From assembly GCA_044892525.1 (NCBI GenBank), contig CM097885.1, positions 226,486,001 through 226,550,000 of the forward strand: 64,000 bases of DNA, read 5' to 3'. The notes under the pieces were generated by a model that saw nothing but the letters and a program-made list of their open reading frames with translations, was not told the DNA's origin and made no database searches. Shown here one piece after another: positions 22,491 through 64,000 of this stretch (position 1 is the stretch's first letter; every line of letters starts with the position of its first letter). Position numbers and translations under genes: made by a program. This DNA is from Schmidtea polychroa (taxonomy: Eukaryota).

Positions 22491-25400
22491 TCAGTCATCG
22501 ATATCTGACCCAGTCAGCGTCAAGGCAACCTAAGACGAGAGAAATTTGAATAAAATTAACATATCATCATTTACCAGTCCACCTTTGTTGATAATATCTG
22601 TCTCATAATATTTATGAAAAAAATCTTTTATATAATGCAGCATTCGTTTAACAGTAGAATTTTTTTCTTCGTCACTTCCAATATAAGCAACTAGTTCAAT
22701 TCCATATTTGTACAACATTGATACGCTTCTTAAGGTACACTCTGTTCCCAACTTATCTTTCAAAAAATGTTTAAATTCTTTGAAATGCTTAACATTGCAC
22801 AAAAATTCTAGATCTGATTCTTCGATAACAATCTTAATCAAAGAAGTTCTAATTAAATATTGACAATTTTTAATGTCAAAAATAAAATATAAATAAATTT
22901 CTTATAAATGCAATAATTCAATATTCATTCTAATCTAATTTATAATAAATCTTTTGGTGAGATTGTATTTGGATATTTGATTGCTCTGGGCTTTTTATTA
23001 AAATACGTAGACCCGTACTCATTGTATTTGAAAGACTAAGTATTTGAAAAGATTAATCCTGAATGTCTGGGCACTAAGTTTAAATCATAGTTTAAAATTT
23101 ATTGCGATGAATACATTATTTCCCAACTTATTATTATTATTTATTGTCTCTTATTATTATTTATTGGTGACCACACCATTAACCCAAGTGACAATTAATC
23201 CATCAACCCATAAACGCCGAATTCTCTAATGGCTGAATACCTATTTAATTGGAGATATTCTTGATAGATTTATCAAGAAGATGAAATTGTGCTTCTCAAT
23301 CGCCGATCTACGGAAACTTTAAAAATATAAGTCGGAAAAAAGGGAAACTGCACATGTGTTTCTTTACTTGATTGGTGGAGAATAAATAAATAATGATGTG
23401 GTTTGCAATTTTTTTACATAAAATAATTATTTTTAATAAAAAATAATATTATCACTGGTACGCATAAAAAACAGATATTTTGAGGTCAACAATGAATATC
23501 CAATTTCATATTTATTCATATACTCTAACCAAGTAGCAACAGTTGGTAATAATTCCAGGCTTCATTTTGAAAATGAATAGAGAGACATGGAAATAAAAAT
23601 TAGACTGATAGAAAAATCATATTTCAAAGAACTCGAAACAATCAATTTCTAAAGGAAAAACTTTCAATCTTGATTTCAATGGAAGACAACCAATCTGAAA
23701 CCATTTGAAACATTGAGATATAGGACAACATTCATATATGCAATGTTATGCATGACGTGAAGTTAGCTGCATGTGGAATTTTACGATTATTTCTAATAGT
23801 CTATTGACTCACAGGAGGTCTATTTTTAATAATTAATAATTAATTAAGAGTAAACTAAAGCCTTCGGTTTCATTTGACACTAGTCTCCTCTCTAGTTTGA
23901 CAGACTATATTAGTTTAATGAATTTAATCTAATTATCTTTTTCGGTAGTGATTTGACTTTAATTAGTACAAAATTGCAATAAAATAGCAAATTTTTTTTT
24001 CAAAATATAAACTTTAATAATAACTGTTAATAATAAATATAATCCAATTTCAAACAATAAAAACAAGGGAGCGTCCATAAATGAAGTTATATACTTAGCC
24101 CATTTTTGAACCACTCTCAACATAGGTCGTTACAAAGGCTTATGCCTCTAAATTTTTACGCAATAAATATATGTCCTCCGACACAAAACCCATTTTTCAT
24201 TAATTATTTTGCAACCATCTTTTTATCTTGCTCAAAAACAGCGCATAATGAAAGATATTTACTAATTTGTTCTATAATTTCCAAAATTATATTTCTTTCC
24301 ACTCATTGCAGGTTTCATTAAGCCACAAAAGTCAGTGAAAATTGATTCAAACAAATAAACTTTTGTAAGTTTAATTAATTTATCTGCTGTTCGTGTATCC
24401 ATCGCCAAATTTTCCTAACTACCGATTGCAATTTATTTAAAAATATATTTCAATTCTAACACAAATAAAAAAGCTAAAGTTCCCATCAACTTATTTCATC
24501 GCTCGATAGCTTATTTTAAAGCCTGGTGCAAGACCTTTAGAATGAGCTAATGTTGTCATCACCATCATTAATATTGGCAAAGTTATTACCATTTTCCCAA
24601 GATCATTTTCAAGGTTATTTGTTTTTTCTCAAGGTCAAATTTCTTTTTCAAGGTCATATTTTAAAATTTAAATTTACAGAGTTTCCGCCAACGAAAATTA
24701 GTAAACGATAGCTCATATGACCTTGAAAAAAATAATATTTTTAAAAATAATAATAAAATTGTCAAATGACTTTGAAAATGGTCTTGGGAAAATGTTAATA
24801 ACTTTGTCAATATTAAAGATGGTTATGACCACAATAGCTCATTCGAAAGGTCTTGCACCAAGCTTTAAAATAAGTTATCGATCGATGAAATAAGTTGATG
24901 GGAACGATAACTTTTGGCAGGCCAAAAAGTAGGTCACCGCGAGAACAAAGGCATTAGAAATAATAATATTTTTAAAAATAATAATATGACCTTGATGAGT
25001 CATACGACCTTGAGAATGCCCTTGAATGAGTCATATGACCTTGAGAATGACCTTGGTGCGTCATGGTCTTTGTTTCAATGACCTTGATGAGTCATCGTCT
25101 TTGTTTCAATGACATTGATGAGTCATATGTCTTTGTTTAAAATTTCAAAGTGATATTTGATATGATTTCTAATGCCAATAGTTTCGAGCTTATTTGCCTC
25201 CAATCGGTACATTGTAAGAAAGTGGATATTATACAAAATCGAATCCAGAGATTTTATAATCAGACATCCTAATCTAATCACTCCATAACAAGAACGCATC
25301 AAATATTACAATTGTTTTATTAACTACAACTTATTTATCATTGAATAACATTATAAACCTTAATTGGGTTTACAACAATTTAATGAGACAAGAATGATAT

Positions 25401-28400
25401 GTCAGATTCAGCTTACTGATGACAACGCCTCAGTCAGCATTTGAATTTAAAAATTAATGTAGCACCTAGAAATAAAAGTACTATTTCCCTATAGTAAAAA
25501 AGCGAGTACGAAAACACTTATATGGGTTCTGAACACCCCCATCTTTCTACTTATATAATCTAAAAATTGTTTTGAATATATGAGCCAGTGTTTATTTTGT
25601 TTGGGGTTCTTGAATTCTAAAGATTGATAAGAAAAAATAACTAACCAAAAGACCACGAACAAAATAATAATTTGATATTTTATATTGACATCATCAATCA
25701 CTTATACATTTTAATTTCTAAAAGGAAAAAAATACAACTTTGAAAAAGCTTTATGAACAAAATGTAACCTTTACAAATTATTCATATTTTTTTCATATTT
25801 GATCTGTTTTCATTTAGATTTCGACTAGCGATCACTGGTTTTCCAATGGGAAAGCAATGATGAATAGTCGAAACATAAATAAATAAATTTGATCTGATAC
25901 GAAACAATACAATCATTTTTTGTTGAAAAATAAAATTTGATTTTATTAAGCGAAGAGTAATCGCAGCAGGGCAAACCAAAGATATTAACCATTTAAAAAT
26001 TAAAAAAATTCGATTTTACAATAATAAGTATTTTTGTTACTTTTTTCTTTTGTTCTACTCGTCCTATTTCAGCATAGATACAATCATTCAAACTAATTTC
26101 TTTTGATGACATTTCTGAAGTCTCTGACTCAAAACTCTGGCTATTTCCACTCATAGTTGAATACGATGAGCATCTATTTTTGTTTTTTAAACAAGACTTA
26201 AGATGAAGATTGTTTTCAAACTCTTTAATGATATTTTTATCAAGATCAAGAGGTTTTTTACTCAAAACTGCTAAAATTCCCATTGTAATAACGTTGATTC
26301 TCTTCCTTTGGCAATCACATGTCTAAGAAAATAATTACATGTTAACATGTCAATTTTAAATTAATTTTCAAACTTTTATTAGAGGTCCCTGTTCAGTTAT
26401 TGATTAGGTTCATTAAAAAGTTAAGATTGATTAAAGTCCAAAACATTTATTTAAATTAATATAAATTTATGCAATATTTTGAACTTATCATTATTAAATA
26501 TTATATAATTTTGAAATAATGCAAATACATTTCTTTTATATCATAACTTATCATTAAATTAAAATGTTTAAATTAGATTAAATTGTTTTAATTTACTATG
26601 AGCATTATTATTTTTTTACACGTTGAGTGCGTTGAATAATATTTATATGGACTCGACACTCAATGCGATAATGATAATTTGAGATAGCAATATATTTTAA
26701 AATTGAAATAATATAAGTGTGAGTTTTCATAATTATAATTTTAGATTGGAATGTAGCAGATGTTGTAATTGTTCATATTTATTCTTTGTTTTCAAGATTT
26801 GCTTTGTTTCAAATTTGTTTTATCAAAATTTAAAATAAATCGGTTAAACAAATGTCATTTTTATAATTATTAAATATTGATATTGGTAAGAGGGAAAACC
26901 GATCGAAAATAAATATTTAAAAAAAAAATAGAATGTAAAAAATCACAAAATCTGTTACATTTCAATTTAGAGTGAACAATGTTGTGTTATAACAGAAGAT
27001 TTTCTATTGTTGAGATTGTATATAAAAAGAATTTATTCAAAAACGATTAAAAATCAGTATTTGTTAGGATAAACAAATAAGAGTGGGTGACAAATAAAAA
27101 GACGAAAACAGGTGATTTGACAACCTGTCAAGCTAAAATAAACAAATTTTATTTTGTTTAGATTTTGTGATTTCTTAGAACTCGATAATTTAATGTGAGA
27201 GAATGAGTAATTCGAGATAGCCCTATGAAAAGGTGAAAAACATAGGCAAATGAATTGATATAAGTTTTCAATGTATTGAATAATGAGCTAGTAAATAGAA
27301 TAAAACTAATAGCCGGTTGCCTGTGGGGTTACCTGGCACCACAGTATTAAAGGAAATATTTGGAAGAATATATTCTAACCAATTTCAATCACTATCATAC
27401 AGATTTTTGAATATATTGCAAAATAAATTTTATTGCGTCGGGTTTACTTACCCATAACCCAATACTATTAATAAAATTGTATAGAAATACAAGTAACACT
27501 CGGTCCACTCCCCGAGTTATATCAAAATGCACATACATTTAGGCTGTTGAAGATATATTCAACAGAAACAGTTGGAATTTAGGAATTCGACGGTGATGAC
27601 TCATAACGACTGATATACAGAGTAAAATGAACAAACGAAGTATAGTGTAAAATTTGGTCGGGAAATCTTATAGTAAACAATTGAATTTGTAATATAATCG
27701 TAATAGTACGAAAGCTTCCATAAGGCGGGTTAAAAGTACTCGAACCATACACTTCCTAATTGTTCATGATTTAATTCTTTTGGTGCTACAATTATTGGAG
27801 TATATGAGGTTGGATCGAGAGGCTGCATTACAATTAGTTGAGAAAAATTACACAAGAAATGGGACACAAATAGCTCTACGCAAATAATTGAACAAAAAAA
27901 TTTATAATTCAAAAGACAAATATACCATACGACACAATTCAACAATTCAGTAGAAAATATTTTAATATCGCTGAAACCGCACTGACTAGACAGAAATTCC
28001 AATAGCTTTAAAATCAATATTGATTTAGCTAATATTTATATTTAATCGATTGTGAAAACTAGTGAAACAAAAATTTTTGGGAGTTACAATTTTGTTGAAC
28101 CTATTTAATTCGTCGGACTTTGTTAAAATTTATTATCGACGGAAATTAGTGATTCAATTGAAAATTGTTGGAATCAATTTGGTACGAGTTATTTATAAGC
28201 GTTTATTTTAATCAACTAACCTATATTAAGGGAGTATCAGTAATCATTTTTATACTGTTTTACTTCTGGTTTAAATATTATTATAAATATTATTGAATTT
28301 GCAACAAAAATAATTTTTCCATTCAACTTGCCCCGTAGATCAAATCCTGAACTAGATAATATTATATTTAATGATTTGTAGAATACAATTCCACCTTTGA

Positions 28401-31400: not shown

Positions 31401-34400
31401 CCGAATATAATTTATGAAATTATTATTAATGAATTTTATTATTAAACTATAGTTGAAATAGTTGAAGCCATTTTTATTCAATTTGATTTTTGAAATATTA
31501 CATTTACATAAATAATTTCATTTTATCTATCAAAATTAAAAGTAATTGTAAATTTTTAGTTTAATATAATGAATTACGAACAGAAGCACAGATCTGGTAA
31601 ATTCTGTGATTGTATAATTTTGAAAAAAAATGTAAGACAATAAGATTAATTAGTTATGTTGGAATAAATCCTTAATCATAAATTTTTTCTCTATCTTTTA
31701 AAATTCGGTAAATAAATCTTAGGAGCAAATTTGCTTTACCGATCAGGTTAAAATTATATACAAGCATAAGGAAATGCATTAAGAAAAGAGCTACTAAAAT
31801 TCTTTGGAAAATCAAAAATATATAAAAACATACTTTATTTGGAACATTTAATTTTGAATTTTGGGATATTATCACCGAAACGTAAATGACACTTTTATTG
31901 TCGATTCCATAGGAAAATAATTCTTGTCTATTTTTTAGAATGGTATCATTATATATCAAATTCATTAAATGAATTTCGATATTTATTTTTTTTGAAATTA
32001 CAGTTTTTAAATATTCCACGGTTTTCGATGAATAAATTGAGAGAGTAAATGATTTTATTGAATACTGAATTATTATTTCGATTTTATCCAGAATTTTCAA
32101 TTGCACAATTGATTTCATTGTGATTCCATACATTGCCAAGGTATTGTGTTTTTCTAATCGGTTGTTGTTATAATAGAGAGAGATTTCATTATAATTAAAG
32201 AGGCTAATCTTGGAAATTATTGTTATTAGTTTATCAATTGTGAAATATTTCCGAACAGAAATGAGTAACTGCTCTTCGTCAGATATTACGATATTTAGCG
32301 AAAAGGATAAATGAGAAACGGAAGTGGTTTCAAATGGTATTCGATAGTCATATTTGACACTGAAAAGATTTTTTAAAAAAGACGGAATTTTGATATTGTG
32401 ATCTTTTGTTTTATATTTGATTTTCTTCGATATTTTGCTGTCAACTAGAACTGTAAATAAATTAGTTGATAAACGTAATAGTTGAAATCTATTTTTAAAT
32501 AAGAAATCATATAAAACATAACAAGAATGATGACAAACAAATGTCTGTCGTGATGTTTGTCACGACTGAAATAAAGTTGACCAGTATTATTTTATTATGT
32601 ATCTTATGCAAAATTACTTGTAATTTTGCTTTCGAAAAAACATACAATTAGCATTGCGCACACATTTTTTAGTAATATTAAAAATGCATTTGACACCTGT
32701 CAAACAATTTCTATACTTATAACTTTGATCAATATGTAGAGGGTTAATTCTGCACACAATAATAAGAATAATCACCTCCTAAATCTTGAAATATATTTCG
32801 TCTTCTCTTAAATTCCTCTCTTAACCTTCACTGTTACATGCCATTGTTTATTTCCTATACCCTACTCTCAGTTTTACAATGCAAGTTATTCAAATACGAA
32901 TTACACCTTTACTTGACCATCAATCAGTTCAACTACTTTAATTATTCCAAACTCTTTAATATGACAAATTGACTTTTCACTTTTATAAATATATTTTGGG
33001 GAAATACAATTTGCCATGCAATAATAATACATTTGAAATCGAAATATCACATATTTTTTCTATTGTCCTACTTCGGCGACTGTAAGATTAGATATATAAA
33101 TCACTTTTTATACAAAGTACAGTTGTTAATATAAACAATTTATTGACTGATTTATATCAATAAAATAAATGGATGAAGATTGATAAACCCTCGACCAGGT
33201 GCAATGTGAGTAAGAACAGGATCGGGCGCAATGTGCGTAATAGGCCACTTTTACAAAAACAAACATTTTAATCAAATAAAAACATGTTTATTGTTTCATT
33301 TGCTCTATATCCTTATTCAAATTGAAAATTCTCTTTGAGTTTACCATTTTTATTGCTGTATCTGTACAAAGAAATAATAAATAAGGTATGGCATTATTAT
33401 GCTTGAATTAATTAGAAAAATTACTTACTAATGTAAATATAGACATAATGGTTGTACTACCTAAGAGACACAAAGTGCTGCGACTCCAACACATGAGGTT
33501 CAAATGCGTACTACACATTATAGGTCGCTGCAGAATGTTAAAACAACAAGCTACTGAGGTGGCCGGGTGGTAACGATAACGGTAAATTTTGGCTGTGCCT
33601 GATGAATCAGTTGAGCACGACTGAGTGTTAAAAAAGTAATTTCTTGCCTATTTAAAATTTTCTGTTGATTCACCTCCATCGATTCCTGAAAGTCATAATA
33701 GAAAAAGAACACTCATTACAATTGACGATAAATTACATGCAGTTAACAAGCTAGAAAATAAGGAGTCGATAAACATTTTGTGCCAAAAGTAGTGTAGGAA
33801 GATCGATAATATACTATTGGCGGAAGATTAGGGGTCACATGAAACATTTTCATAAAATGACAGAATATGAACCGGCGCTAGATAAAAGATTCACAACAAA
33901 AGAAAAATATTCTGAATTAGATGATATTCTATGTATTGAAACTTTAATATTTTTGAAAACTGGTGTACATATTTTTTAATGTATAAATAATAAATAATAA
34001 GTAATAATAAAAAAACCTTCCAATATATAAATGACACAAAATGGTTGAGTTATTAAGAAAGTAATTAGATTATTTTTTTGTCAAGAGACAAAACCTTAAA
34101 AACGGAGAATTTAGAAATGAATTTTGACTTTCCAATCATCATTACTAATAAAAAATTATATTTTCCAAATCCAATCTAGAATTGATATCATTAATCAAAT
34201 TTATTAGCATTCAATATTTTGAGTAAGTTTGTAGGGTATCAAATGTTTTTGAACCTTGGCTTCTCTATATTTGATGCGAATAACTCGGTAAGTCTTGTAA
34301 AATCTCCATTTATAGACAACTATCTTACTCTACGAGGCAAGAGTAACTGATTTGTTAATTCATTTTTTATTCATAAACTTGTGTAAATTATCGCAAATAA

Positions 34401-35452
34401 GGAGAATGAGTACAAATCGGATTAATGAATTTAATAAATATCTTTAGAGCAAAAGTGAACAAACTTTTACTGTAAATTATTTCTTGAGAATTGTTTTTTA
34501 TTATTACTTTTTCAATTATTGTCATGGCGTCCCCAGGAAAAATTACACTTTATGTATTTAAATTAAAAAACAAATTATTTATTATATATTTACCGACTGA
34601 AGTATTTTTACATTTATAAAGGAATCCTCCTGATAATGCTAGCGCAGAAAGAGTTAGTTATCAAATGAGCATAAAGTTATCGCCGCATTTTGACTCTTTT
34701 TCAATAGTTGATCCATTTCTATATTAAATAGTAAACTCATGAAAATATTTTCAATTTACCAAATTTATTATATTCACAAACATTGACAATTCTACTCAGT
34801 CGAGAATTTTCTTGATCAAGAGTTCCCCGTGAATTAGAAACGAATTAGCCCGAATATAACACGACAATTTTTAACATTTTATTTTTATTAAATTTTGGTT
34901 TAAATTAATTAAATTTATTGTCATGAATATAACCTATGTATTACTTTTAATTACCTAACCAAACGCTTATCTGTTTGAATTTCCCTTAATTTTAATTCTT
35001 TTATGAGTATTTTTTTTCTAAATTCGGGGTCGCGTTATATTCGGGCTAACACGGTAATATTACTATAGTTAATTTAGATATGGGATCATCATAAATTTTA
35101 TTTTTGTATACAATTTTAGAATACATAACAAATCAAATTATTTTTACCTGGAACTGAATTTATATCTGGCATTTCATAAGAATTTTCAGTCGATCGACTA
35201 CTGCTTGTATTAGATTTTATTGTCTGAAATGAAATTCTACCCAAATCTTCCTTCAAGGTATCAGAAATTGAGTTTTTTTTGATAAGAGTTGAATTACTTT
35301 GAACCTTAGAAATTTATAATAAAAATCTCAAAGAAAATTTATGAAACTTCATTTTTCTCATAATAATTCTGAAATCCAGTTCTAATAACGACATTCAGAG
35401 ATTCCTCAAAATCTCTTGAAACTTGACTTTTTTTCTTTTTTAATTTACTCAT
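22491..35452 (-). CDS. Putative tandem-ubiquitin-like-domain / Bcl-2-family fusion protein, copy A (~477 aa)
   Basis: Exon model 35452-35348, 35304-35148, 32450-32384, 32359-31834 (two Ubl domains), 26322-26041 (BH4/BH3-like), 22832-22575 (BH1/BH2-like), 22529-22491 (tail, stop); all GT-AG and in frame (1434 nt). The Ubl and Bcl-2-like exons are well supported individually; the three 5' exons and the Ubl-to-BH4 splice are inferred from phase compatibility and paralogy; two N-gaps lie in that intron. Confidence 0.6.
24479..24905. repeat. Foldback element with ~135-bp imperfect inverted arms
   Basis: 24479-24613 (GTTCCCATCAACTTATTTCATCG...) is the reverse complement of 24768-24905 with scattered mismatches. 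Confidence 0.85.
24985..25140. repeat. Irregular short tandem repeats built from TGACCTTGA / TGAGTCAT / TCTTTGTTTCAA modules
   Basis: Directly visible recurring modules next to the foldback element. Confidence 0.7.
27340..27900 (+). pseudogene. Decayed non-LTR (RTE-like) RT relic
   Basis: Broken translation VKFGREIL...LLVLQLLEYMRL...RNGTQI resembles the RTE RT region VKF...G.RQG..LSP.LF.LVLEY.MR...RGT; weak. Confidence 0.3.
29100..29244. mobile_element. hAT MITE (145 bp)
   Basis: Degenerate TIRs TAGGATTGCCA / TGACAACCGTA with a perfect 8-bp TSD ATTATTGC (29092-29099, 29245-29252). Confidence 0.85.
29262..29343. mobile_element. piggyBac-type MITE (82 bp)
   Basis: TTAA at both sides; 14-bp TIR CACGTTGACGGACA / TGTCCGTCAATGTG (1 mismatch). 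Confidence 0.85.
33691..33945 (+). pseudogene. Tigger/Jerky-type transposase N-terminal relic (HTH_psq + start of CENP-B HTH)
   Basis: RKRTLITIDDKLHAVNKLENKES...VGRSIIYYWRK...KEKYSELDDIL with stop/frameshift. Confidence 0.6.
34846..35054. mobile_element. pogo-type MITE
   Basis: Inverted ends TAGCCCGAATATAAC(A/G)CGAC; right end ...TATTCGGGCTAACACGG followed by TA; left end lacks the outermost bases. Confidence 0.5.
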
Positions 35453-37632: not shown

Positions 37633-38611
37633 TTATTGTCTGTCATCATTTGTCAGCCTGGTGGACATACTATTCTCAAGCTCGCTGATGCGTTTGGTGA
37701 GGCCTGTAATAGCGCAAAGTAAGGCTTCTTCGGTCGAAGGTTTCAAAGAAGAAGATAAAATTTTTGGATTAGTGCTACTACTTAATTGCACAGAGCAAGT
37801 TGGTTGCGGACCAAGTGGCACGACTTCGTTAATCTTGTCGGCCATCTTTGTTAGCTCTACCACATCTGAAGAAAGCGTTAAATTTGTTATGCGTGTGGCG
37901 GTAAAGCAGTCAGAAAAAATTGCTTCAAGAGTTTTTGATCCGCAGCAGCCTCAGGATGTATTTGAGTTAGTTCTGCCATAGCGTGTTGCAAGAACTGTGA
38001 TGGTTTTCTGCTACCCAAAGTTTGCGTCTTAAAGTATTTAGTAAAGACGACAGCTGTAGGCTCTTTAAAAATATCGAGGATTGCCGTACGCAATTCTTCA
38101 TAAGGATTTTTGACGCTAGTAGGCGAAGTACGAAGGATTACGGAGGAAAGTTTACTTAATATCGTCGGGGGAAGCAACGGCAAAATACGACAGTATTTGT
38201 CTCGTGAACTGGTTACCTCGATTCCCTCGAGTGCTAGTTCGGTAGCAATCAGCCAAGTAAGTGGAGATTTATTCTCATCCAAAAAATATTGACATAAATA
38301 CGTTGATCGCTGATTGTTGGACTTACGTTTATGTTTTGTCTGTTTGTGATTGCTGTCTGAGTCATTCTCCGAATCGGAGGAACCGCCAGAAATTGGCAAC
38401 AAACAATGAATGACGCTGTATGGTGTCACTCCGTAGTCGCCCAAGGTAGGACTGTCAGAAAGAATGGTGCCGTTGTACGATAAGAGAAAACGGCATTTGT
38501 GATTGAAAAAATGCTGTATGTTTGAGAAAGACATTTAATTGTCGTGTCCGTGTTTACTGAAACAGATTGTGTTTTATTCGTTCCAGGATTTTTTATTAAT
38601 ATTTGGAACTT
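37633..38611 (-). mobile_element. Ty3/gypsy gag relic with an N-terminal ubiquitin-like domain (Ubl-Gag fusion); no pol seen
   Basis: 38608-38382 encodes a 76-residue Ubl ending LLPISGG (one frameshift in a T6 run), read through in frame into Gag (TWLIATE...KYCRILPLLP...PYEELRTAIL...LGSRKPSQFL...FFLTALP; second frameshift ~37887; then KMADKINEV). Confidence 0.85.
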
Positions 38612-38749
38612 ATTAGGCCCCGGTGCGGCACTACCCTCTCGTGTGGGCTAATGTTTAATCAATTTTAATTTATTTAAATAATTTATTATAATTTTATATA
38701 TAATATCTATAATAGTATAATTCAATAATAGTATAATAGTATAATTTAC

Positions 38750-39630
38750 AGATAATTGATCTAAGGTACCTGACGGTGCTGACACGGGCATTGCTTGATT
38801 AGTCTCATTGTGAAAATAGGATGATGTTGACTGATGAGGTTCATTCGTCCATACATTAGATTCGACAGTTGATCTGTTTCGTTGACTAGCTGATGACGGA
38901 TTTCCTAATTTTTCACTGCAGTCTGCCCCAATCTTACTGTCAATCACCCACGGAGTACTCTTGTCAACTGTGTGACTACCCCAGCCATCAATTCGATTAA
39001 TAAGGTTCAGAAATTGGTCATCTACTTCCTGTTTAACACCATCGTAATTTTTTACAGATGTTTGAAGGCCTTTTCCAGCAGCTTGAGCCCAAGTTTGACG
39101 TTCGCTGTTTTTCTCATTACTTCCTCTTGAATCTGGATTATTTAGGTCACTATCATCTAAAGAACCAATATCATTAACAGCTGAACTATTGAAAGCACTG
39201 AATAAAGGAAATTCGGATTTAATATCCGATGATTCAGATTGTAATTGAATACTTTTACTGCTAAATTTGGAAGATGATTTATTTATCGGGTTTGATGGTG
39301 CAGCTTGATTAGCTGCCCAAAATGAAATACTTCGAGTGCTAAATCTATCATTCGATAAGTCGCTGGACTGAGAATTATTCCAACAATTATCCAGTTTATT
39401 TGATGAATCATTATTCACAATGAAATCTGATGAATTATTTCTAGATAATCCCCAAGGAACTGTTTCGTTATTTGCTGGCCATTGTGATGAAAAACCAAAA
39501 GTAAAATTGTTGCCCATTTTATTTGTGTTATCTGATTCAGAGTTCCAATTAGGAGTTCGTTCTACACTGCTATCTGTAGACGATGATATGTTAGAAATTT
39601 TGGTACTAAAATTAGATGAGCTGCTTAGAA
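38750..39630 (-). CDS. TNRC6: GW182/TNRC6 (Gawky) N-terminal Argonaute-binding region, exon block
   Basis: S/N-rich ORF with spaced Trp motifs plus TWAQAAGKGL and LINRIDGWGSHTVDKSTPWVID (GW182 motif-I-like GWG..V.Q.T.W); frame open upstream of ATG 39517 to ~39630; phase-0 donor GTAAAT at 38749. Downstream UBA/RRM exons not found in the window. Confidence 0.75.
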
Positions 39631-39999
39631 TGATTTCGTAGGAATTTTCTTACCAGTAAATATCCCACTTCTGACACCTAGTGTGGTGGTGTTATATTTC
39701 ATCATTTTCCAATATGGTGCAAAAACAGTTTCTTCGTCAGCTGAAAATTCCAAAACTCCATTTTCGATAGTTTTTGTACAATTTTTATAAAATCCGGTTG
39801 AGTAGCACGTATAAACCTTGTCAAAATTCATAGGCATACTATAAAATAGATCCATTTTGAAGGTATTTTTGAATAATAAAATACTAATTGATTCACAATA
39901 TTACAAAACTAATAATAACCAGTGAGAAAATAAGATATATTTTAAATTTCCAATGACAAATAACGTAATAATAAAATTTATATGGATTTTGTTAAGGCC

Positions 40000-43090: not shown

Positions 43091-44699
43091 ATGATTTTGG
43101 AAAATAAGTAAAAATTTGGCTTCATGATAGTCTGCTTGAGAAAAAAATAGGATTCGAAACTGTCATTAATACTAGATTTATTCAGAACTGTAGAAATATC
43201 AGGTATTTATATTTTTTTTCTAGAAAAATTCTAAAAAAGTTAGAAGAAATTGATATATTTAAAAATAAATCTAATCTATATTACATACGATTTCTTTTAC
43301 TGAAATTCTATACAGTATTTTCTATTAACTACCCATTGGGACTCAATTATTTTCCTTCAAATTTTGGCCCTCGGCACTTCTTAAGTTGTGTACGCCTGTG
43401 TTAGAAAATTATATGAATGTAATTATCATACATATTCACTGAATTTATCTAAATACATTCATTTGTTCTCCATTTATTATTTATACTATGAATACAATTA
43501 ATAATCATTCTAGAAATCATGATGACATCAACTACAAATATCAAGTAAAAATTTTACAAAACATTTATTGATAAAAAATAAATTCGATACATAAAAAATA
43601 GAACAATCTTTATTAAAAGAAAAATAAATCGATACATTTTATACAAATTCTGTATTAAACAAATATATATAAAAAATAAATGAATTATCTGACATTGTTA
43701 GTATTGAAAATGTTCCTTTGGAGTGAAATTTGCCTGAATAAAATATTTAGCACTTTTTAGTTCAAATTAATAGAAATAAAAAAAGCAATTTAACATTTAA
43801 ACTTAGGCAAAAATTATTTTTACATTTTATGGTTAAATGTTTGATAGTTAACTTTTAATAAATAATTATTAGGATTATCGGGCGTGAATGAAAATGGATT
43901 TAAAAAACCGTGATGATTAACAAGGAACGTGCGAAGAATCAGTAAACTAATCAGAATAAGATAATAACATTTATATAAATTAATTAATAAAAAAAATTAA
44001 TAAAATTACAAAAAATAAAATTTATTTAATTAATTCAAATACAATCCTTATTTTCTATTAACTTTTTATAAAATTTTCATTTAATGCGATTAAGAAAGAA
44101 AAATCTATTCTCTAAGTCAGTGGTTTCCAACCCGGGATGCGCGACTCCCAGGGGAGGCGCGGCCTATGGCTAGGGGAGGCAACAAAACTTTTAAGTAAAA
44201 AAATAATTTTCATACCATAATTATTATTTCGTCATTTTTAGCACTTCGAGTTTAAAATTACCAAATAAAAAAACACAAAATTTAAACTCTTTTACACAAT
44301 AACAAGAAATGTCAAATTCCAGGCATTCTTTACCTTTAAACATCAAGATACTTATAATTATATATATAAAAAAATATAAAAAATCACTCTACATTTTGAT
44401 TTTCCGAACAGCTTACACAAATTGACGCCGCGTGTCTAGGGCATATATTTTACTGCATGAAACGCATACTGTCGAATATTTTCTGTCAAGATTTCGAGGG
44501 CAATGTATGCATCTTTTTATGGCTGGTCGAACTTCATTTTTAGATTGTTCTTGTAAAATATTGTTACTATGAAGTACATAATATGTCGGCGTTTTGTTCG
44601 TGTGAGGGTTTGTATAGTACTTCTATATTTCAGGTAGTCATCAAAAAGAGAAAAATCTAATGTTTTGAGATATTTTTTCTAGGTTTTATAAATTTTTTC

Positions 44700-53089: not shown

Positions 53090-53710
53090 CGTGTTAATCA
53101 TATTTGTTTTTTTCCAAATTTTCATGTTTTTGAAATGTGTGTAGATATTTTTATAAGAAATACATATATTTTCGTAATTTGACCTTTAAATTTAAAACTT
53201 TTAGTTTTATATATGATAAAAATCGTTGCAAAACCTTTGAAATTCAAATTTATTTTTAATTCGCTAAAAATTTCTTTCAAAAAACTTTAGAATCATTTTG
53301 AAGAAATTTAATAATTCATAATTATAGGATTGCCACTTCTCCCTGAATTTGGCCTGCTTAAACGCGAACATTCCAGCTGCCGACAAGAGTTGATAAGTTA
53401 TAATTTTTTTTGTAAAATTGGGTAAAAATTTTTTCTGGAGTCTTCCTTCATTTTTAAATGCTTGAGAAATACCCCAAGGTAAAATTATTTTAGGTAAACG
53501 CATTATATTTAATTTCTTAGTCTTTCAGAATTTCAATCTAATTTTACTGTTCGAAATTCTACAAAAAAATTTGTTGGAGTAGCAACATTGACATTTTTGT
53601 CAAGAAATTAAAACTGACTGAACTAATTAGTATTTAAAATATTTAAATTAATTAATTTACGATACAAGTATATAATTTAGGAACAATTAAGTTATAATCA
53701 TAATACTTAC

Positions 53711-56700
53711 TAGACCTCCTTTTGCGATTATTTGCTTTTCGAAATATTTTACGAAGTATCGTCTTATGTAATCTAAAATTTTGTTTATTTTTTCATCACT
53801 TTCATGTCGGGAATTTAAGAAATCGACTAAAGATTTTGCATAAAGGTAAAGCATTGATAAACTGGCATTAGTGCACTTCGTTCCAATTTTATCTCGAAGA
53901 AATTGCTTAAAACCTCGGAAGTTTTGAGTGTAAAATAAATATTCTAAATCTGTTGTAGTGATTTGATTCTAAAATAATTAATGGCCATTATTTCAGATAT
54001 TTTTGTCATTAAAATTTAAAATTTGTTTTGCACTTTTGGAGTATTAGATAAAATTTATGATTGATAGTTAAAAATGAAAACACATGGATTTCCAAATATT
54101 GCAGAAACTAACTCTTAATTCACTGGTTCCCACACTTTTTACATTGAGGGCCAAATCTAATTTTTCAAGTATCGTAGCGAATCACACGCACGTTGAAAAG
54201 TGGAAACACTTTGTGTGTGCTTCAATGTTTAAACTACACGAGTACAACCTACTAGACTTAAACATGTTAGGCCAGGGGTCCGCAACCTTTTAGATATGGT
54301 GTGCCAAGCCACTGCCAATTAATTCAGGGTGCCACCTTATTTCTTTTTACAAATAAGTAATGGTATATGTCTGTCACATTAAGTAATACAGTTCTTTATG
54401 AAAATAATTTGATCTCAAAATTATTTTTTAAATATATTTAATTGAAAAACAAACAACATAAAATCCCATTGATAACTCGACCTCGTGCCAAATTTGTCAC
54501 GCATGCCATAGGTTGCCGACCCCTGTGCTAGGTCATCATAGTGCAAAAAGAAAATTTAGAGCTTATAGAAATTAGTTCGTGCATTTTTAAAATGTAACAT
54601 TGTAATTGTAAATGTAAAATCTAATCTAAAACGATGAAAATTCAAGAGTATAATTTTCAACTTTAAATGCAAGAATTCGACCTATGCATTAAAAATTATT
54701 ATCTAAATTAGTTTTATATTTATTATTTTAATCAATTTAATGTTTGAAAACTGTTTATTAAAGTCTTATCAGCTTTAATTAATGCTGTTTATGTAACTGC
54801 AAATTGGAAGCCATTTTACCAATGTCTGGATGGAGGTTTGTTGTGGGAAGTATCATCAATCCATTCAAATTTAAATCAGTGAGGTGAGCTCGATTTTTGT
54901 TCTTTACCAGTTTCATAGCTAAAAATGATTGCTCACATCTGTAAATGCACCAAAAATGGTATATATAATATAATTAATATTAATATAATTAATTAATATA
55001 ATTAATTAATATATAATAAATAAAACCATATTATATTTACATGAATTTTTGTTAAATTTTTAATAACTAAAATAATATTTGACCCGAAGGTTGATATTTT
55101 CAAAAAATAAATAGTAAAAATTTAGATGACAGGATCAAACGAAAACTTAGGGAAAGTTCCAACCTCTTATTCCGTGAATTTACTGGAAAGACATACATTT
55201 TTATCCTTGGTCGTGATGGAAAATCAATCTGTTTGATTAGCGGATTTTGTGTATCTGTTGATGTACTCCTGGGTGCTTTCGAATCCAGATTTTCCCAGTT
55301 TGTTGTTGTATGATTATTATTTTATAATTTAAGGAAAAACAAATTGTGGGTCACTTGAATTCGTTGCGTGAGTCAGTGTCTGACTCGTGGGTAATATGTT
55401 CGCTGTCGCTGGACTAGATCAAGTGTAGAATCAACTAGCATGGAAAGAAAATTGGGATTCTTTAATTCTTCTAACATTGTATTCCCTATATGGGTTACAA
55501 ATAAAGTAATAAATTCATCAAAAATAGTGAAAAATAAATACAGTACGTTTCCTTTTCCCAAGTTTATATAATTGTTATATTATTTAGTATAAAAGGATGA
55601 AATGCTAAATACATGATAATGGAAATAATGCGTATCAAAATTTATATTACAAAGGAATTCTGGAAATTAAATTATTTTCCTAATGCTTCTATGTGCGCTT
55701 GTAAAGGAAGCGCCGTGCTTTCTGATAACACGGTTTTTTTAATATCTTTAATAAAATCAAAAATGGACATAAAAATCTTATCAGTCATCATTTCTGAATT
55801 CACTGATATTTCAGGAGTCAAATAAATACTTATCCCGTTGGAAGTTATGGATGCATAAACAATTTCGAACAAGATTCTATCTTTATTGAGGCAATTTAGT
55901 GTGAATTTGTAGAAACTGATAATTCAATGATATGATGTCATTTATGTGATGGCAGTAGCAATTAATGTATGCAAGAGATCACTCAAGAACAATATTCTAT
56001 AACATGTTTAGAAAGTGTAAATGTAAAATTCAACACTAAATAAGGAAACTACTATTAACTACAAAAACCATTTGGTTATATTTCAAATCCAAATACAAAT
56101 CTGCACACAAAGTAATTTGAAAAATCAAACCCCAAAAAATAATTTTATTCAAAATTAAAAATATTTGAAAAACTGAAAACTGGAAATCAAATTTCTTTCT
56201 ATTAAAACATTTTTTAATTCCCCAATCAAAATCTGTGTAATGAGAAATGAGAAAACAATTTTTTTTTTAATAAATTAAGACAAAATAAGTTGATGTCGTA
56301 TGAAGAATAACAAAAAATATTTTTTAAATCTTAAATATTTATTAAAAAGTTTGAAGACTATGAATCAGTAAATATATCGATCTTTTTTTGATATATTTAC
56401 TGATTCATAGTCAAGCTTTTTAATAAATACAATGGAAAAAAAATCAGTAGGGAAATTGGAAAAAAAGTTCTTATAATAAATCTTAAATGACGAAAAAAAA
56501 TTCATACTGAACGGTGTTTTTGAATTATTCCTATTTCGGTATCTATAAATTCATGTAGACATGTTTCGTCAATTGAATTTATTTGATCTTCATTTTTACC
56601 ATTCGTTTTGTTTTTAATGCAACTTTTTAGATGCAGTCTTGACCCAAAATCGTCTAAAAGTTCCAAACATTTGTGATTTTTAAAATCTTTATCAAAAGTA

Positions 56701-59299
56701 GACTGAAATGCACATGCCATAGCCTCAATTCTGATGTTTTCACAATTACATTGCTGAAATAAAATACCAAATAAATAAAAATGAATAAAATTTTAATTAT
56801 AGCTCTTATAAGAATACTAAATTAGTAGATGGATTAGTCCTCGCTGGCAGAGTACCCTCCTCCTGCTGAAGCAAAATTATTAAGCTAAAAATATTTTTGT
56901 ATTTCACGTCAAATTAATCATATTTTAAGTAGGTCAAATTCTCGTAAAACACATAGTACCCACTGTCACAATATATAAAATAAAATTTTTAATAAATTTA
57001 AGTAGGTCAAATCATCTTAAAAACCTAGTTCCTTCTGTATAATATATAAAATAAAATAAATTTTAATAAATATGTAGGTCATATAGATTTTATAAATAAA
57101 TAAAAATCATCTTTAAAAGATAATTTCTTCCGGCACAATATATATTGACAGTATGCAATTTGTTAATTGTTCTTTAAAACTCTTTCAAACTTTCCTTTAA
57201 CTTCATCTGTTTTTGAGGGGTCATTAATAAATTTCAAAGGCATTTTTCCTTATAATTTTGTGACTTCTTTGGATGTTCTTGAGTCTACTTTGGAATTGTC
57301 TCCTATTTGGTTTGATGTTACTGAAGATGAGTATGCTAAGGTTCAACTAATTTGGACTCATCAAAACTGAGTATTCCTCTTTGCGGATTATTTTCAACAA
57401 TTCCGTACAAAGGCCATAGCATACAATGGCCTTCAGCCTCTAAATTTCTATGACATTGCAGGTATGTTATGGGCATCTGCGCTTACTACATTAATGGAAC
57501 CTATAGAACTTTTGCAGGACATGGAAATGTATAATTTCTATGAGGGAGGAATACGGGGTGGGTTAATATTTGATAACAAACATTATGTGGCTGCTTCCTA
57601 TGATTGGGTTCTTAGCCAAAATCTTCAGTATGGTGATTTTTTTTGGATACATGATAATTTGAATGATGTGTTGAATGAATGTTTTAATGGGGATATTGAA
57701 ATCTTTCCATATGGATATACTATGGAAGTTAATATTGATATTCCGGAATGTTTGCATGATATTTTGAATAATTTTCTGCTTGTTCCTGAAAAGATGTGCC
57801 CATCAAATTCAAAAGTAGAGAAGATAATGCTCACGCATTGGCCCAAGAAGAACCATGTTCTTGATTGGAGGTTTCTCAAACTTTAACTGTCACTTGGGGC
57901 GGTAGTAAATATTTATAGGGCAATTAAATTCAAGAAAGCACCTATATTTAAAACATATATCGACAAAAATACATGATTAAGAGCAGAATCAACTAATTAA
58001 TTATATAGGGATTTGTTTAAACTATATAATAATAGTCTGTATGGTAAATCCGTAGAGAATCTGAAAAAACGGATGAATTTGAGGCTATACAATTCAGCTG
58101 AAAAGATAACTGTATATGCTTCAAAACCGACTTTCATAAAATCTATCAGAATTGCTGCTATCTGAATAAAGACTATATGTTTTGATAGACCTAGTTACAT
58201 TGGACAATCTGTGCTAAATCTGTATAAATTGCGGGAATACCAGCTCCAATATAATGAATTGCAGAAATACAGACGACAATTTAATTGCACTATCAATATA
58301 GTAGCCGGTGATACTGACAGTTTCTTCTTAGAAATAAAAAATTTGAAATTAGATATATTACTATCAGCGATGATTTCCGATAATTTATTAGACACTTCAA
58401 ATTACGATCCTTTTCACCCATTATATTCGACGAACCTTGACTCTGCCATCGGAAAGTTCAAAGATGAGAGTAAGGGATTAGGATACGATGAATGGGTTTT
58501 CTTACGCCCGAAGTGTCATAGTCTTTTAGGAAGTAAATTGTATGAAATCTAATAAGATAAAACTACTGGGAACAGTAATAAACAATCAATCATATCTAGA
58601 TTGCTATAATAATAATCAGATTATTTCTGTACCGCAATCTAGAATAGAAATTCGGAATCACCAGCTTTTCACATTTAAAAATACAAAAATAGCATTATCA
58701 AATAATAATGATAAGCGCCTGGGTAGGAAAAAATACAAGTTTTACATTTGGGCACTATTTAGGGGTTGATGCCATTGACGAGGACCAAATATTGGACGAA
58801 TTTGGCCCAGAATCGGAAGGCGCAAGCCTAAGTTTCGATGATAGTTCCTAGAATGAAGAAAGCCCGGCAATGTACAGTTTTAGTCAGGAGTTTTGATATT
58901 TAATAAATAGTGTAAAGAACCCAAAAAATGACTTTGAATATGTTGATTTTTATTTGTGAATTATTGAAACATGTTACTATTATTTCAAAGTTTAAATACT
59001 TTTTTATTCAGTGACTTTTATTGATATTTTAAGGAATTTGTAAAAACATTTTCTAGGTTTAAATGCTTTTGTAGTATTTAAAAAGATAATNNNNNNNNNN
59101 NNNNNNNNNNNNNNNNNNNNNNNNNNNNNNNNNNNNNNNNNNNNNNNNNNNNNNNNNNNNNNNNNNNNNNNNNNNNNNNNNNNNNNNNNNNNNNNNNNNN
59201 NNNNNNNNNNNNNNNNNNNNNNNNNNNNNNNNNNNNNNNNNNNNNNNNNNNNNNNNNNNNNNNNNNNNNAACATGTTGATTAAGAGTATACCTGCGTGG

Positions 59300-59343
<44 letters not shown>

Positions 59344-62300
59344 TTGACCGTCCTTAAAACCCTTAAAAATGACCCTTACAACACCCTTGCAATACCTTGG
59401 ATCATCAGAATAGAAATTCGGTTGCTCGGAGAAAATCCCTTCGAAATGAGTCATTTTTCGCCGAAATACTGTGTCAGGAACACTCAATATAAAACCGACA
59501 ATATTTAAATAAAATATGTTATTCATTGATTTGGAATATTTTTACGAGGATTTGACCTACTTAAATATGATTAATTTGACGTAAAATACATTAAAGATCT
59601 CCTTGAAAAACTGAGAAATTCTTTAAAAAACAGAAAAATTTCAATGAAAAACATAAAAAATATGTGAAAAACTTAAAAATTCCGTGACCCACATAAAAAT
59701 TTAGTGACTTACATAAATATACTAGTTGACCTACTTTAAAATACTAAGCAAAATTTTTTTTCGCTTAATCAATTTTTCTTCAGTAGGGGGGGGGGGGGTT
59801 ACTGTGCCAGAGGGGACCAATCCATTTATTTTGATTTTATAAAAAAAATAATTCCTTAAACATAAGTAGTTTCATCATTTTCTTTTTCTGTTTCGTAAAG
59901 AAGCAAAATTTCAACGTTTATAAGATCGGTTTAAAAATTCCTTAGTAAGACTAACTTCCAAGATTTATTTCATCAAAAGGTACAATGATTGCGGCAACAT
60001 GCAACTAGTATAAAAACGCAGCTTCCTTTATTTTCTTTCTCCTCTCTAGCCTCTTACAAAAAAATTTATTTAATTACAATCCAATAAAATTGATTTCAAT
60101 TAAAAATTAAAATGTTTAAGTCATTACTAGAATAAATAACCTGACACTTTGTAAAGTCCGTGGTGAAAATTTGTGTTAAATATGTCAAATATTTGCGCGT
60201 ATATTATACTATTTAATAAATAAATAAACAATATGTATTGATAAGATTTATTTCTAAGTGTTATTAATATTATAAATTAAGCTATGTACACCCAAAAATG
60301 TCGCTGTTAGTCTAAGTAAGAAATCGGTTATTCAGACCTTTCTCAGCTATTTCCAATTATTCATGCTAGGCTTAAAATACACCTATAGCCCTATATAAGT
60401 GATTGAAGAAAGATTATGGAATCCCTAAAGTTTGGCGTCATTGAGTAGAAACCCAGAAGAATAGGTTTACTCAATTTAACTACTTCAATTTAACCAATTA
60501 TAAAGAAGAGATAAGATAACACCGAAAGTGGAATTCTACTATCTCTTTTTGATAAAAAATATTAAAACTTAGAAGTTCTTATTTTTTTTCTTGCTTCAAT
60601 AAATTTTAATGATCTAAGAGAAATAAATTAAAATTTCTTTTATATGTTTAACAAAGCTCGAAATCGATAGCGATTATGATATTATTAATTTTTATTGTGA
60701 AATGCACTAGTATTGATAAGTACATATTTCATATTTGATATGCCTGGTCAGGCGAATTAATTATCCAACTTTGTTTCTAGCTCTCGTGTTCCCTTTCTCA
60801 AATATTCATTTTATAATATTATCCGAATGTCTGTTAAGAAATTTCAAATACCTTGACGTGCATCTAGCTTGATTAATTGGTTTGAAAACAGAATAATTGC
60901 ACCCAGGAACCACACCACTATATCTTAAGGTCTGTTATTTCTTTTAATACTAATTTTCCGGATTTTGTACTTTTTATATATATTTAAACGATTTAAAAAT
61001 TTTTTATTTTACTAGATTATTTGAAAAACAATTTGTACAAATTAATTATCACTTAAAATTAAATTCATAGCAATCAATTTTTTAACTTTCGTTAATGAAC
61101 TTTGTAGAAAGCGGAAAGATTTTTCTAATGAATAAAGCACATTGGAACCTAGGTGTCAAGAATTTAAATAAACTAGAATTTTTATTTTCCGAAAAATTAA
61201 CAAATTTATTCAGGTTTACCTTCAAATTATTCGTCATAGCTAGGAAACTTTGAGCAACTTCAAAACCAGGACTTTTCTTAAAATATATAAAATTAATTTT
61301 GAAAGCATATTTATTTCAAATTAACTATATTAAATGTAATTTTCATGTATATATAAAATAAACTTTAATAATTATTTTCATACATATGGAAATATTTTAT
61401 TTTATATTATTTTTTATAATAAATATTATAATTAACAAATAAATGGTTAAAATAAAGAGTTAAAGTTAATTTGAAAATTTAATGTTAATATATCTTTTAG
61501 CTTTTAAAGATTGCGATGAAAAATTACAAATATAGTCATAAGGATTTTTTTATTATATAGCTTCACCACTATATTGTGAACATAATCACCAAGAAAACAC
61601 ATATCGCCGAGGAGGCCAATAAGTCACAAAGTGAGATAAACTTTTGGTAAAAAATCACATTGGTGATATGTTCGTAGGAACATAAATGTAAACAAATATT
61701 AGAATAGTAAAAATAAATTCAATATAAATTAATTAAATTTTATTTGTGAGATATTATGGGGTCATTGTAAAATATAATTTAATTTTATGCGTCACTAAAG
61801 GGTTTGAACACAAATAATCCAATTACATATTCAAAAGTCGCGGTTTGAAAAACTAAACTAACCCATTAGGTACCCCTCGCGTCACATAATTGAACAAAAT
61901 TAAGAGTCTATAATTGCTCGCTGGTGTGTCTTTCCAGAGAAAAATTTGGAGAATATATGACGACTGTGTCCATTAAGAACTGTTAATAATTGAAGTCTAA
62001 TTGCTTAAAGATATATTCAAAAACAAATTGATTGCCTAAAACTGGTATTATTTAAACAACCGATTTAAATGGCGAATTAATTAATTTAATAATAATGATA
62101 AATATGCGTGCCACCATTTATACTTATTATACTTTTACTATGTAATAATATATGATACTTATAATACAATATATATATTTTTTATAAATTAGTTATTTAA
62201 ATATCCCTAACAAGGACCATAAAGATGCGAAAATTGAAATTTGTCAAAATATTAACTACTGAAATTTATTTATATAATTTAAATGTTAGAAAAACAAAAA

Positions 62301-64000
62301 TTAAATTAAATAATACACTTGGAACTTAATTGACTAATTTTTTGGAAAGTAAGGGATCAAAGAGGATAATAATATCAAATTAAACTTGTTTTAATAAAAG
62401 TAAGGAAAGTTAGGATTAAATTACGATGATTGATGAGGATCTAAAATATGTATGAGTAATTAATGCCAATTTTGACTTTTGTGATCAAAGAAATTAAGAA
62501 ATCCAAAGAAAACTTCAAAACAAATTAAGACAGATTAAACAAAATGTAATTGTGAATATACTTATAACAATATTATAACAGATATTTCAGGATTTGGTGA
62601 AAGAACAAATGCTCAATATAATAGCACTCAAAAAATTAATTTTTGTTGTCAATATCAAGAATACATTTGATAAAATGTTAAACAATGCTGCAGTGTCCAT
62701 AAAAAACTTATAAGTGAACCAATAGATGGATCACCTGCAATGTTACGTTAAAATGTAGGTCTCGTTGGCCTCTTGAAAAGTGATGCCAGATAAAGTGGTT
62801 TTACAGATTGTAAATTATATTCGAATAATTGCAAAAAATCATTGTAAGTTCAAGAATTTCAATGAAGAGTAAGATGATTAAAATTTTCAAAATTATGTTT
62901 TTTTATATTGCATTGTAAGATGGTTATTAAGTTACAAGGTGATTAATCAATTTTTAGAACTAAAGGAATATCTTGTGAAATTTATTAAAGAAAAGGATAA
63001 ATCGTACCCATTACTCGACATAATGGAACATTTGCAATTTTTAAACTTAGTACTGCAAAGAAAGGTGAAAGATATTTCTGATCTGGTTGAAACGATATTC
63101 ATCTCTCAGAAAAAAACTGTAACTTTGTGAGAAGGATATCATGATAAAAAAATTAAACATTTTCCTCGTCTAGAAATTGGATTTCTTGAAATCAAAGATG
63201 AAAAATCTGATGAATATCTAGGAAAATTAAAAGAATTATTGGTCAATTCCAGGCTAAGATTTAAAGAAAACCTACACTATTTCATTTTTTATTAATTCTT
63301 TTAAAAATGGACTATATTGCAGTCACAACTCAGTGAATTCGATTTAATCATTTAAACATATAATCATTTAAACCATAGTAGAGGAAAGTGCGAACACCCT
63401 CAATATGTACTAATTTCCTTTTCACTGTTCAATTTTAATTAAAAATATCTATCAAGTATTAAACGAGATTTATAAATAAACTTACCCCATACTCTGTACT
63501 ACTATGAATACTATTTGGCCTCTTTTTAATTATTTCAATAGTGCTATCTTCTGGAATACAATACAAGAAAAATTGTTTACAGTCATTTAAAAATATCTCT
63601 TTATATTTCAATTCAAATAAATTTGGATTTTCTTTGATTTCCTTTGAATATAATAGTTTGATTTCATCAATTTTTTCGGAAGTGTAAATAAATATTGTGT
63701 AAATTTCTTTTATATACAATCCGTGATATCTATGTTTTGACAATATTTGCAAATTGACGTCAGAATTTGAATTAATGTTATACCAAGATAGAGTGATATG
63801 ATTCTCCAATCTTGTATTTTTATGGCATAAAGCTATTGCATGAAAGTCTATAGACTTTTTCTTCGCTATTTTCTCAATAATCTTTTCGACAGTGAAATAT
63901 TTATAAACTTTAATTTTCAAATATTCTTTACTTTCTTTAATGATTGGTAAAATAAAAGGAAGATTATTAATATCAGTTCCTTCAAATGGTATTTCTAATG
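53711..64000 (-). CDS. Putative tandem-ubiquitin-like-domain / Bcl-2-family fusion protein, copy B (5' part outside window, last exon uncertain)
   Basis: Exons >=64000-63486 (two Ubl domains, GTAAGT donor, phase 0), 56753-56508 (BH4/BH3-like, phase 0/0), 53968-53711 (BH1/BH2-like, 258 nt, phase 0/0; absent from the ORF track). The last exon aligns ungapped to copy A at 37/86 identities by manual count. Confidence 0.65.
54273..54525. mobile_element. hAT MITE (253 bp)
   Basis: TIRs CAGGGGTCCGCAACCT / AGGTTGCCGACCCCTG; degenerate TSD TGTTAGGC / TGCTAGGT. Confidence 0.85.
55360..55880 (-). pseudogene. hAT (ZMYM1/ZNF862-like) transposase relic
   Basis: ELKNPNFLSMLVDSTLDL and upstream YLTPEISVNSE...LPLQAH fragments. 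Confidence 0.55.
56340..56490. repeat. Dispersed repeat with a perfect 23-bp hairpin; partial copies at ~21690 and ~28636
   Basis: GACTATGAATCAGTAAATATATC (56356-56378) / GATATATTTACTGATTCATAGTC (56390-56412); the right arm and downstream sequence recur at 28636-28740 and 21689-21740. Confidence 0.75.
56824..59830 (+). mobile_element. Polinton/Maverick deletion derivative: long imperfect TIRs plus decayed pPolB
   Basis: Left end AGTAGATGGATTAGTCC...; 56829-56945 matches the reverse complement of 59749-59825 and 59542-59590. Internal fragments YEGGIRGG, YTMEVNIDIPECLHD, KLYNNSLYGKSVENL, AGDTDSFF, GKFKDES, DKR are pPolB motifs; possible degenerate 6-bp TSD TAAATT / TTGATT. Confidence 0.85.
59301..59340. 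repeat. (TA)20 microsatellite
   Basis: Directly visible. Confidence 0.98.
62560..63300 (+). pseudogene. hAT (GTF2IRD2-like) transposase relic
   Basis: QFLELKEYLVKFIKEK...IMEHLQFLNLVLQ...ISDLVETI plus upstream DGSPAM-like remnant; many stops. Confidence 0.55.

What the first reader, a model, noticed from the sequence alone, without database searches (positions are those of the whole stretch)
53711..64000. Second paralog ~31 kb away with the same exon order, phases and lengths
Seen: copy B repeats Ubl exon, then BH4/BH3 exon, then BH1/BH2 exon on the same strand. Offsets from copy A are ~30.5-31.7 kb; every junction is phase 0; the BH1/BH2 exon is exactly 258 nt in both (37/86 identical, ungapped); IPFETTSVSHLSF matches IPFEGTDINNLPF; LHLKSCLKNK matches LHLKSCIKNK. 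Intron contents differ (unrelated TEs), and the sequence just after each Ubl donor shows no homology between copies. Inference: an old tandem duplication kept under selection. Conserved splice phase with open frames at ~40% identity independently supports the fusion model and suggests a small lineage-specific family.
Basis: partly seen in the sequence, partly recalled or inferred. Interest (0 to 1): 0.75.

Follow-up and report, generated by a model that had tools for sequence, protein, structure and literature searches.

The report
Ubiquitin-tagged Bcl-2-like gene pair
Two neighbouring, anciently duplicated genes in what is likely a planarian genome (one shown to be spliced into RNA) likely put two ubiquitin-like domains in front of a likely zinc-binding module and a domain predicted to resemble the Bcl-2 cell-death regulators but lacking their signature residues, a combination not found in the literature searched and likely working as an adaptor rather than a death switch.

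The parts
63486..64000 (-). Copy B exon with two tandem ubiquitin-like domains, no di-Gly. It extends to an acceptor at 64153 beyond the window; two further predicted coding exons lie beyond it (extended numbering 67600-67471 and 67734-67648, the latter homologous to A's first exon; neither seen in reads)
   Evidence: Pfam PF00240 E 1.4e-8 (2 stretches at E<=1; 1 stretch at E<=0.01); join to the next exon inferred from depth
59091..59269 (.). N run inside B's intron; not bridged by any listed DNA contig, spanned by the inferred spliced join
56508..56753 (-). Copy B middle exon: CxC (56750-56742), helix, HxxxC (56633-56619), loop, then a helix at the predicted alpha2/BH3 position without the BH3 Asp
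   Evidence: RNA-like contigs X1 and X7; motif in 9 of 9 family modules
53711..53968 (-). Copy B 258-nt exon, four helices predicted to match Bcl-2 alpha3-alpha7; ends KGGL|GT
43698..43733 (-).
   Evidence: loose end of X7 contig maps uniquely here; hydropathy
35348..35452 (-). Copy A first coding exon, predicted (weak GTTTCA donor)
   Evidence: blastp 11/19 identical to B's first exon, E 8e-4
35148..35304 (-). Copy A second exon, predicted, ends phase 1
31834..32450 (-). Copy A exon with two tandem ubiquitin-like domains, no di-Gly
   Evidence: Pfam PF00240 E 1.1e-15, 2 stretches; di- and polyubiquitin best PDB hits
26041..26322 (-). Copy A middle exon (CxC...HxxxC plus helix)
22575..22832 (-). 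Copy A 258-nt helical exon, ends KGGL|GT; its last exon was not identified

Best explanation
Copy B is a spliced gene and the old tandem sister of copy A; each likely encodes a roughly 475-residue soluble protein of two ubiquitin-like domains, a likely zinc-binding CxC...HxxxC module and a domain predicted to have a Bcl-2-like fold, likely acting as a cytosolic adaptor rather than a mitochondrial death switch. Shown: exon structure, homology, purifying selection, two splice junctions of B, the stop without a membrane anchor, the Ubl domains, the invariant Cys/His motif and five C2 relatives in which no Ubl was found. Inferred: the Ubl-to-middle-exon join (about 90%), Bcl-2 ancestry of the helical domain (about 65%), zinc binding (about 75%), and a single gain of the Ubl pair in the ancestor of A and B (about 75%, unrooted tree). 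Proposed working, untested (about 45%): with BH1 NWGR, the BH3 Asp, both BH2 Trp positions and the tail anchor lost, the bundle would not bind BH3 helices or make pores. It would bind a partner on another surface, as BCL-G and poxvirus A52/B14 are reported to do. The uncleavable Ubl pair would bring that partner to ubiquitin receptors or the proteasome, or set the protein's own turnover.
Confidence: 0.55

Rival explanations
1. The gene structure is right but the helical domain is not of Bcl-2 descent: it is a lineage-specific CCHC-plus-helical family whose four helices only resemble Bcl-2 alpha3-alpha7.
For: No sequence-level hit; AppA/CarH tie in structure searches; helix 1 not recovered; no Trp in 7 of 7 copies of the last core exon; the CxC...HxxxC exon occurs three times in a row in one C2 stretch, as an independent module would.
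Against: Bcl-2 matches cover 84 of 86 residues with almost no gaps and extend over the alpha2 helix, whereas AppA covers 70-79; the exon ends at the residue aligned to Bcl-xL 188, with GG[LI] in 3 of 7 and a related xGL or GxL ending in 3 more; profile register agrees.
Confidence: 0.27
2. These are working apoptosis regulators: soluble decoys that still bind BH3 helices or Bak/Bax through a remodelled groove, with the Ubl pair as a built-in degradation tag that keeps them short-lived.
For: Predicted Bcl-2-like fold; PMC3847314 (section 5 and passages) notes that M11L, N1L and F1L lack obvious BH motifs and that M11L binds Bak BH3 without the usual salt bridge.
Against: No tail anchor; BH1 NWGR and BH2 Trp absent in 7 of 7, BH3 pattern in 9 of 9; the genome holds many canonical Bcl-2 genes over the Pfam cut-off.
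Confidence: 0.12
3. The fusion is only apparent: the Ubl exon belongs to another transcript or the scaffold join at the gap is wrong, or copy A is a dead relic.
For: The Ubl junction is not listed's tables and no listed DNA contig bridges 59091-59269; A was not tested for expression and has a weak first donor.
Confidence: 0.06

Closest known systems
Multi-motif Bcl-2 family (Bcl-xL, Bak, Mcl-1, CED-9; Pfam PF00452)
   Same: Predicted alpha2-alpha7 arrangement; intron at the BH2 GGW position (PMC8998228 passages).
   Different: No Pfam hit; BH1 NWGR, BH3 LxxxGD and BH2 Trp absent; no C-terminal TM; invariant CxC...HxxxC module; tandem Ubl in front; helix 1 not shown.
BCL-G (BCL2L14) and BFK (BCL2L15), atypical vertebrate members
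   Different: They keep BH2 and BH3; BCL-G's Ubl is added after translation, here two Ubls are encoded in the same exon chain. No orthology shown.
Poxvirus Bcl-2-fold proteins A52, B14, N1, K7
   Different: Viral and single-domain; the viral structure library gave no match; these genes are spliced host genes.
Integral Ubl-domain proteins and tandem-Ubl modifiers (FAT10/UBD, ISG15, BAG1-type; the last two recalled)
   Same: Two tandem ubiquitin folds; best PDB sequence hits are di/polyubiquitin and UBD.
   Different: No di-Gly, internal position, so not conjugatable or cleavable in the usual way; attached domain is not a BAG domain by Pfam.

Membership tests
Bcl-2 family | Sequence match to the Bcl-2 domain profile PF00452 | tested here: not met
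   No hit for 4 core exons or P0001-3; the window is absent from the 150 scored genome matches. Exon-wise testing lowers sensitivity.
Bcl-2 family | Helical bundle alpha3-alpha7 around a central hydrophobic helix | tested here: met
Bcl-2 family | Complete bundle including alpha1 (BH4) | tested here: inconclusive
   P0001 model, pTM 0.47, only 3 of 18 alignment rows span both exons; alpha2 aligned, alpha1 not. BH4 pattern found in 1 of 9 modules.
Bcl-2 family | BH1 NWGR motif | tested here: not met
   0 of 7; motif as named in PMC8998228.
Bcl-2 family | BH2 motif ending GGW | tested here: not met
   No Trp in 7 of 7; GGL, GGL, GGI, EGL, GEL, GDL, KSM at that place.
Bcl-2 family | BH3 motif L-x3-[GAS]-D | tested here: not met
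   0 of 9 modules; motif as defined in PMC3847314 section 5.
Bcl-2 family | Intron after the BH2 Trp position | tested here: met
   7 of 7 have GT there; used in B by read evidence; 5 of 9 canonical loci share it.
Bcl-2 family | C-terminal transmembrane anchor | tested here: not met
   B stops 11 codons into its last exon; highest 19-residue hydropathy near the end 0.21; P0001-3 also lack one. A's last exon unknown.
Bcl-2 family | BH3-in-groove binding or control of mitochondrial permeabilisation | not testable with these tools
   Needs experiment.
Ubiquitin-like domain | Match to PF00240 above the curated cut-off | tested here: met
   57.5 bits (A) and 34.9 bits (B) against 25.4; B's second domain is weaker.
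Conjugatable Ubl modifier | C-terminal di-glycine | tested here: not met
   No GG in either Ubl exon.
Zinc-binding module | Four invariant Cys/His ligands that meet in space and bind metal | tested here: inconclusive
   CxC...HxxxC in 9 of 9 modules and in no other of 1057 ORFs; region modelled confidently, but distances could not be read and metal was not tested.

The most novel reading that the evidence does not exclude
Planarians carry an unrecognised branch of the Bcl-2 fold that has dropped every BH signature and its membrane anchor, replaced or clasped helix 1 with a repeatable CCHC zinc module, and in this gene pair captured two ubiquitin-like domains: a genetically encoded Ubl-Bcl-2 fusion that wires a Bcl-2-fold scaffold directly to the ubiquitin-proteasome system.
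Probability: 0.45. Interest if true: 0.75.

Novelty: new variant of a known kind. Interest (0 to 1): 0.6.

Why it matters
Published inventories of animal Bcl-2 genes were made by BLAST or Pfam searches (PMC11463336, which includes flatworms, and PMC2246300; passages), which would likely miss these seven genes. If the fold is right, the repertoire of an RNAi-tractable regeneration model is larger than counted and includes cellular, anchor-less, motif-less members like those known mainly from poxviruses. The Ubl-bearing pair and its Ubl-less relatives give a natural comparison for what a Ubl tag does to such a scaffold. If the fold is wrong, it is still a conserved, unnamed family with a new Cys/His module.

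Full report
Setting. The window is G000:C1:226486001-226550000 of a 781-Mb, AT-rich genome with four large contigs. The pair lies between a CDC73 gene and an RNA polymerase large-subunit gene.

Observation. Each exon pair scores above all 300 shuffles. The last core exon is 258 nt in both, 39/86 identical without gaps. Introns share no collinear homology. Beyond the window, B's Ubl exon starts at 64153 and a first exon at 67734 matches A's at 35452. With predicted splice sites, B reads open for 474 residues and A for 473 up to its last identified exon. The entry into the Ubl exon is phase 1 in both.

Expression. Four of 12 listed runs were laid on 53561-63560. Kind 'RNA' is the tool's guess, but contigs of X1 and X7, from two studies, lack the intron exactly between 56508 and 53968, and the genome search with that exon returned only B, A and one distant C2 relative. 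X7's loose end maps uniquely to 43703-43732 behind an AG, giving a last exon of 11 codons and a stop. B therefore has no tail anchor. The Ubl junction is not among the rows shown, as the tables are cut. It is inferred: X1's depth in the last bin is 8.22, and 8.23 is expected if the depth-32.5 contig covers the 75 Ubl-exon bases; one X1 record runs past the stretch's end; and 1640 nt leaves 210 nt for a 5' leader. This also argues for the scaffold join at the N run, which no listed DNA contig bridges. The contigs differ from the assembly at three listed exon sites, two synonymous. A was not tested.

Selection. Over 324 aligned codons amino-acid identity is 39%, pS 0.74 (saturated) and pN 0.41. 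In the ungapped exon, third positions (35/86) are close to the composition baseline (0.31) and second positions (54/86) are not; p=0.006. None of 2000 neutral simulations kept the frame open.

Family. A profile of three exons against 1.84 billion proteins found 3 hits, P0001-P0003, unnamed MetaClust records with no significant Pfam domain. They led to five tandem copies on C2 at 21.10-21.33 Mb with the same exon boundaries. No Ubl was found there: a local Ubl profile over 240 kb gave best E 0.16, and 0 of 129 minus-strand ORFs (of 176 listed) hit Pfam ubiquitin. A and B form one side of a 100/100 branch (unrooted, long branches meet), so one gain of the Ubl pair is the simplest reading. Its source is unknown. 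Retroelement-like ORFs carrying Ubls exist in this genome, one at 37890-38534, so capture through a mobile element is possible but untested.

Every middle exon carries CxC near its start and HxxxC 37-41 residues later: 9 of 9 modules, and no other ORF among 1057; P0001-3 have it too. One C2 stretch holds three such exons in a row. Zinc binding is inferred from the ligand set alone.

How it likely works. Without a groove signature, a BH3 Asp or an anchor, BH3 capture and pore formation are unlikely. The nearest working models are BCL-G and poxvirus A52/B14, reported as binders acting outside apoptosis (PMC10244440, PMC3847314). The Ubl pair has no di-Gly, so it would stay attached and act as a docking or turnover signal; that step follows general knowledge of integral Ubl domains and is untested here.

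Literature. Eight full-text searches, judged from listings and abstract starts, showed no report of a Ubl-Bcl-2 fusion or of this family. The library lacks most subscription papers, and I did not read the primary planarian and schistosome Bcl-2 studies cited in these reviews. Seen: PMC8998228, PMC11463336, PMC2246300, PMC10244440 and bioRxiv 10.64898/2026.01.24.700457 as search passages; PMC3847314 as passages plus section 5. No supplements were read; the gene lists in those of PMC11463336 and PMC8998228 could bear on novelty.

Verdict. A real, selected tandem pair, with B spliced, and a new domain arrangement. The Ubl domains are certain, their join to the core is very likely, the Bcl-2 part is probable and the function is inferred. 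Interest 0.6.

Noticed in passing
window 37890-38534 (-): ORF with a ubiquitin-like stretch (E 1.6e-5) fused to DUF7041 (E 8.6e-6), likely a retroelement gag, between the two paralogues.
   Followed up: no
G000:C2:21253312-21258684 (L098): Three CxC...HxxxC exons in a row ahead of one helical exon, suggesting a repeatable module or alternative exons.
   Followed up: partly
G000:C4:89.95-90.83 Mb (L019-L025): Seven canonical Bcl-2 matches with near-identical scores in under 1 Mb; the two that I read were nearly identical in sequence.
   Followed up: no
many places, e.g. L034-L048: Dozens of dispersed Bcl-2-like copies, many with a TAG stop, behaving like mobile-element cargo; earlier notes place such genes in Polintons.
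   Followed up: no
L018:217-3219 (-), G000:C4:24.75 Mb: Single 1001-residue ORF of many divergent ubiquitin-like repeats (Pfam 8 stretches); weak nearest relative of B's Ubl pair.
   Followed up: partly
L116:451-2892 (+), G000:C1:84.98 Mb: One open frame with phosphatase-like, ubiquitin-like and gag-like stretches, read by eye.
   Followed up: no
G000:C2:21147147-21161320 (+): Long retroelement-like ORFs (1166, 2338, 735, 491 residues) inside the C2 cluster; the 2338-residue one has a stretch that looks ubiquitin-like by eye but was not scored by the local profile.
   Followed up: no
window 38651-39649 (-): 333-residue Ser/Asn/Trp-rich ORF with no Pfam match, next to the Ubl-DUF7041 ORF.
   Followed up: no
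L004-L009 (extended numbering 68000-123000): Large inverted repeats upstream of copy B: identical ORFs on opposite strands near 70 kb and 81 kb, and near 106-122 kb.
   Followed up: no
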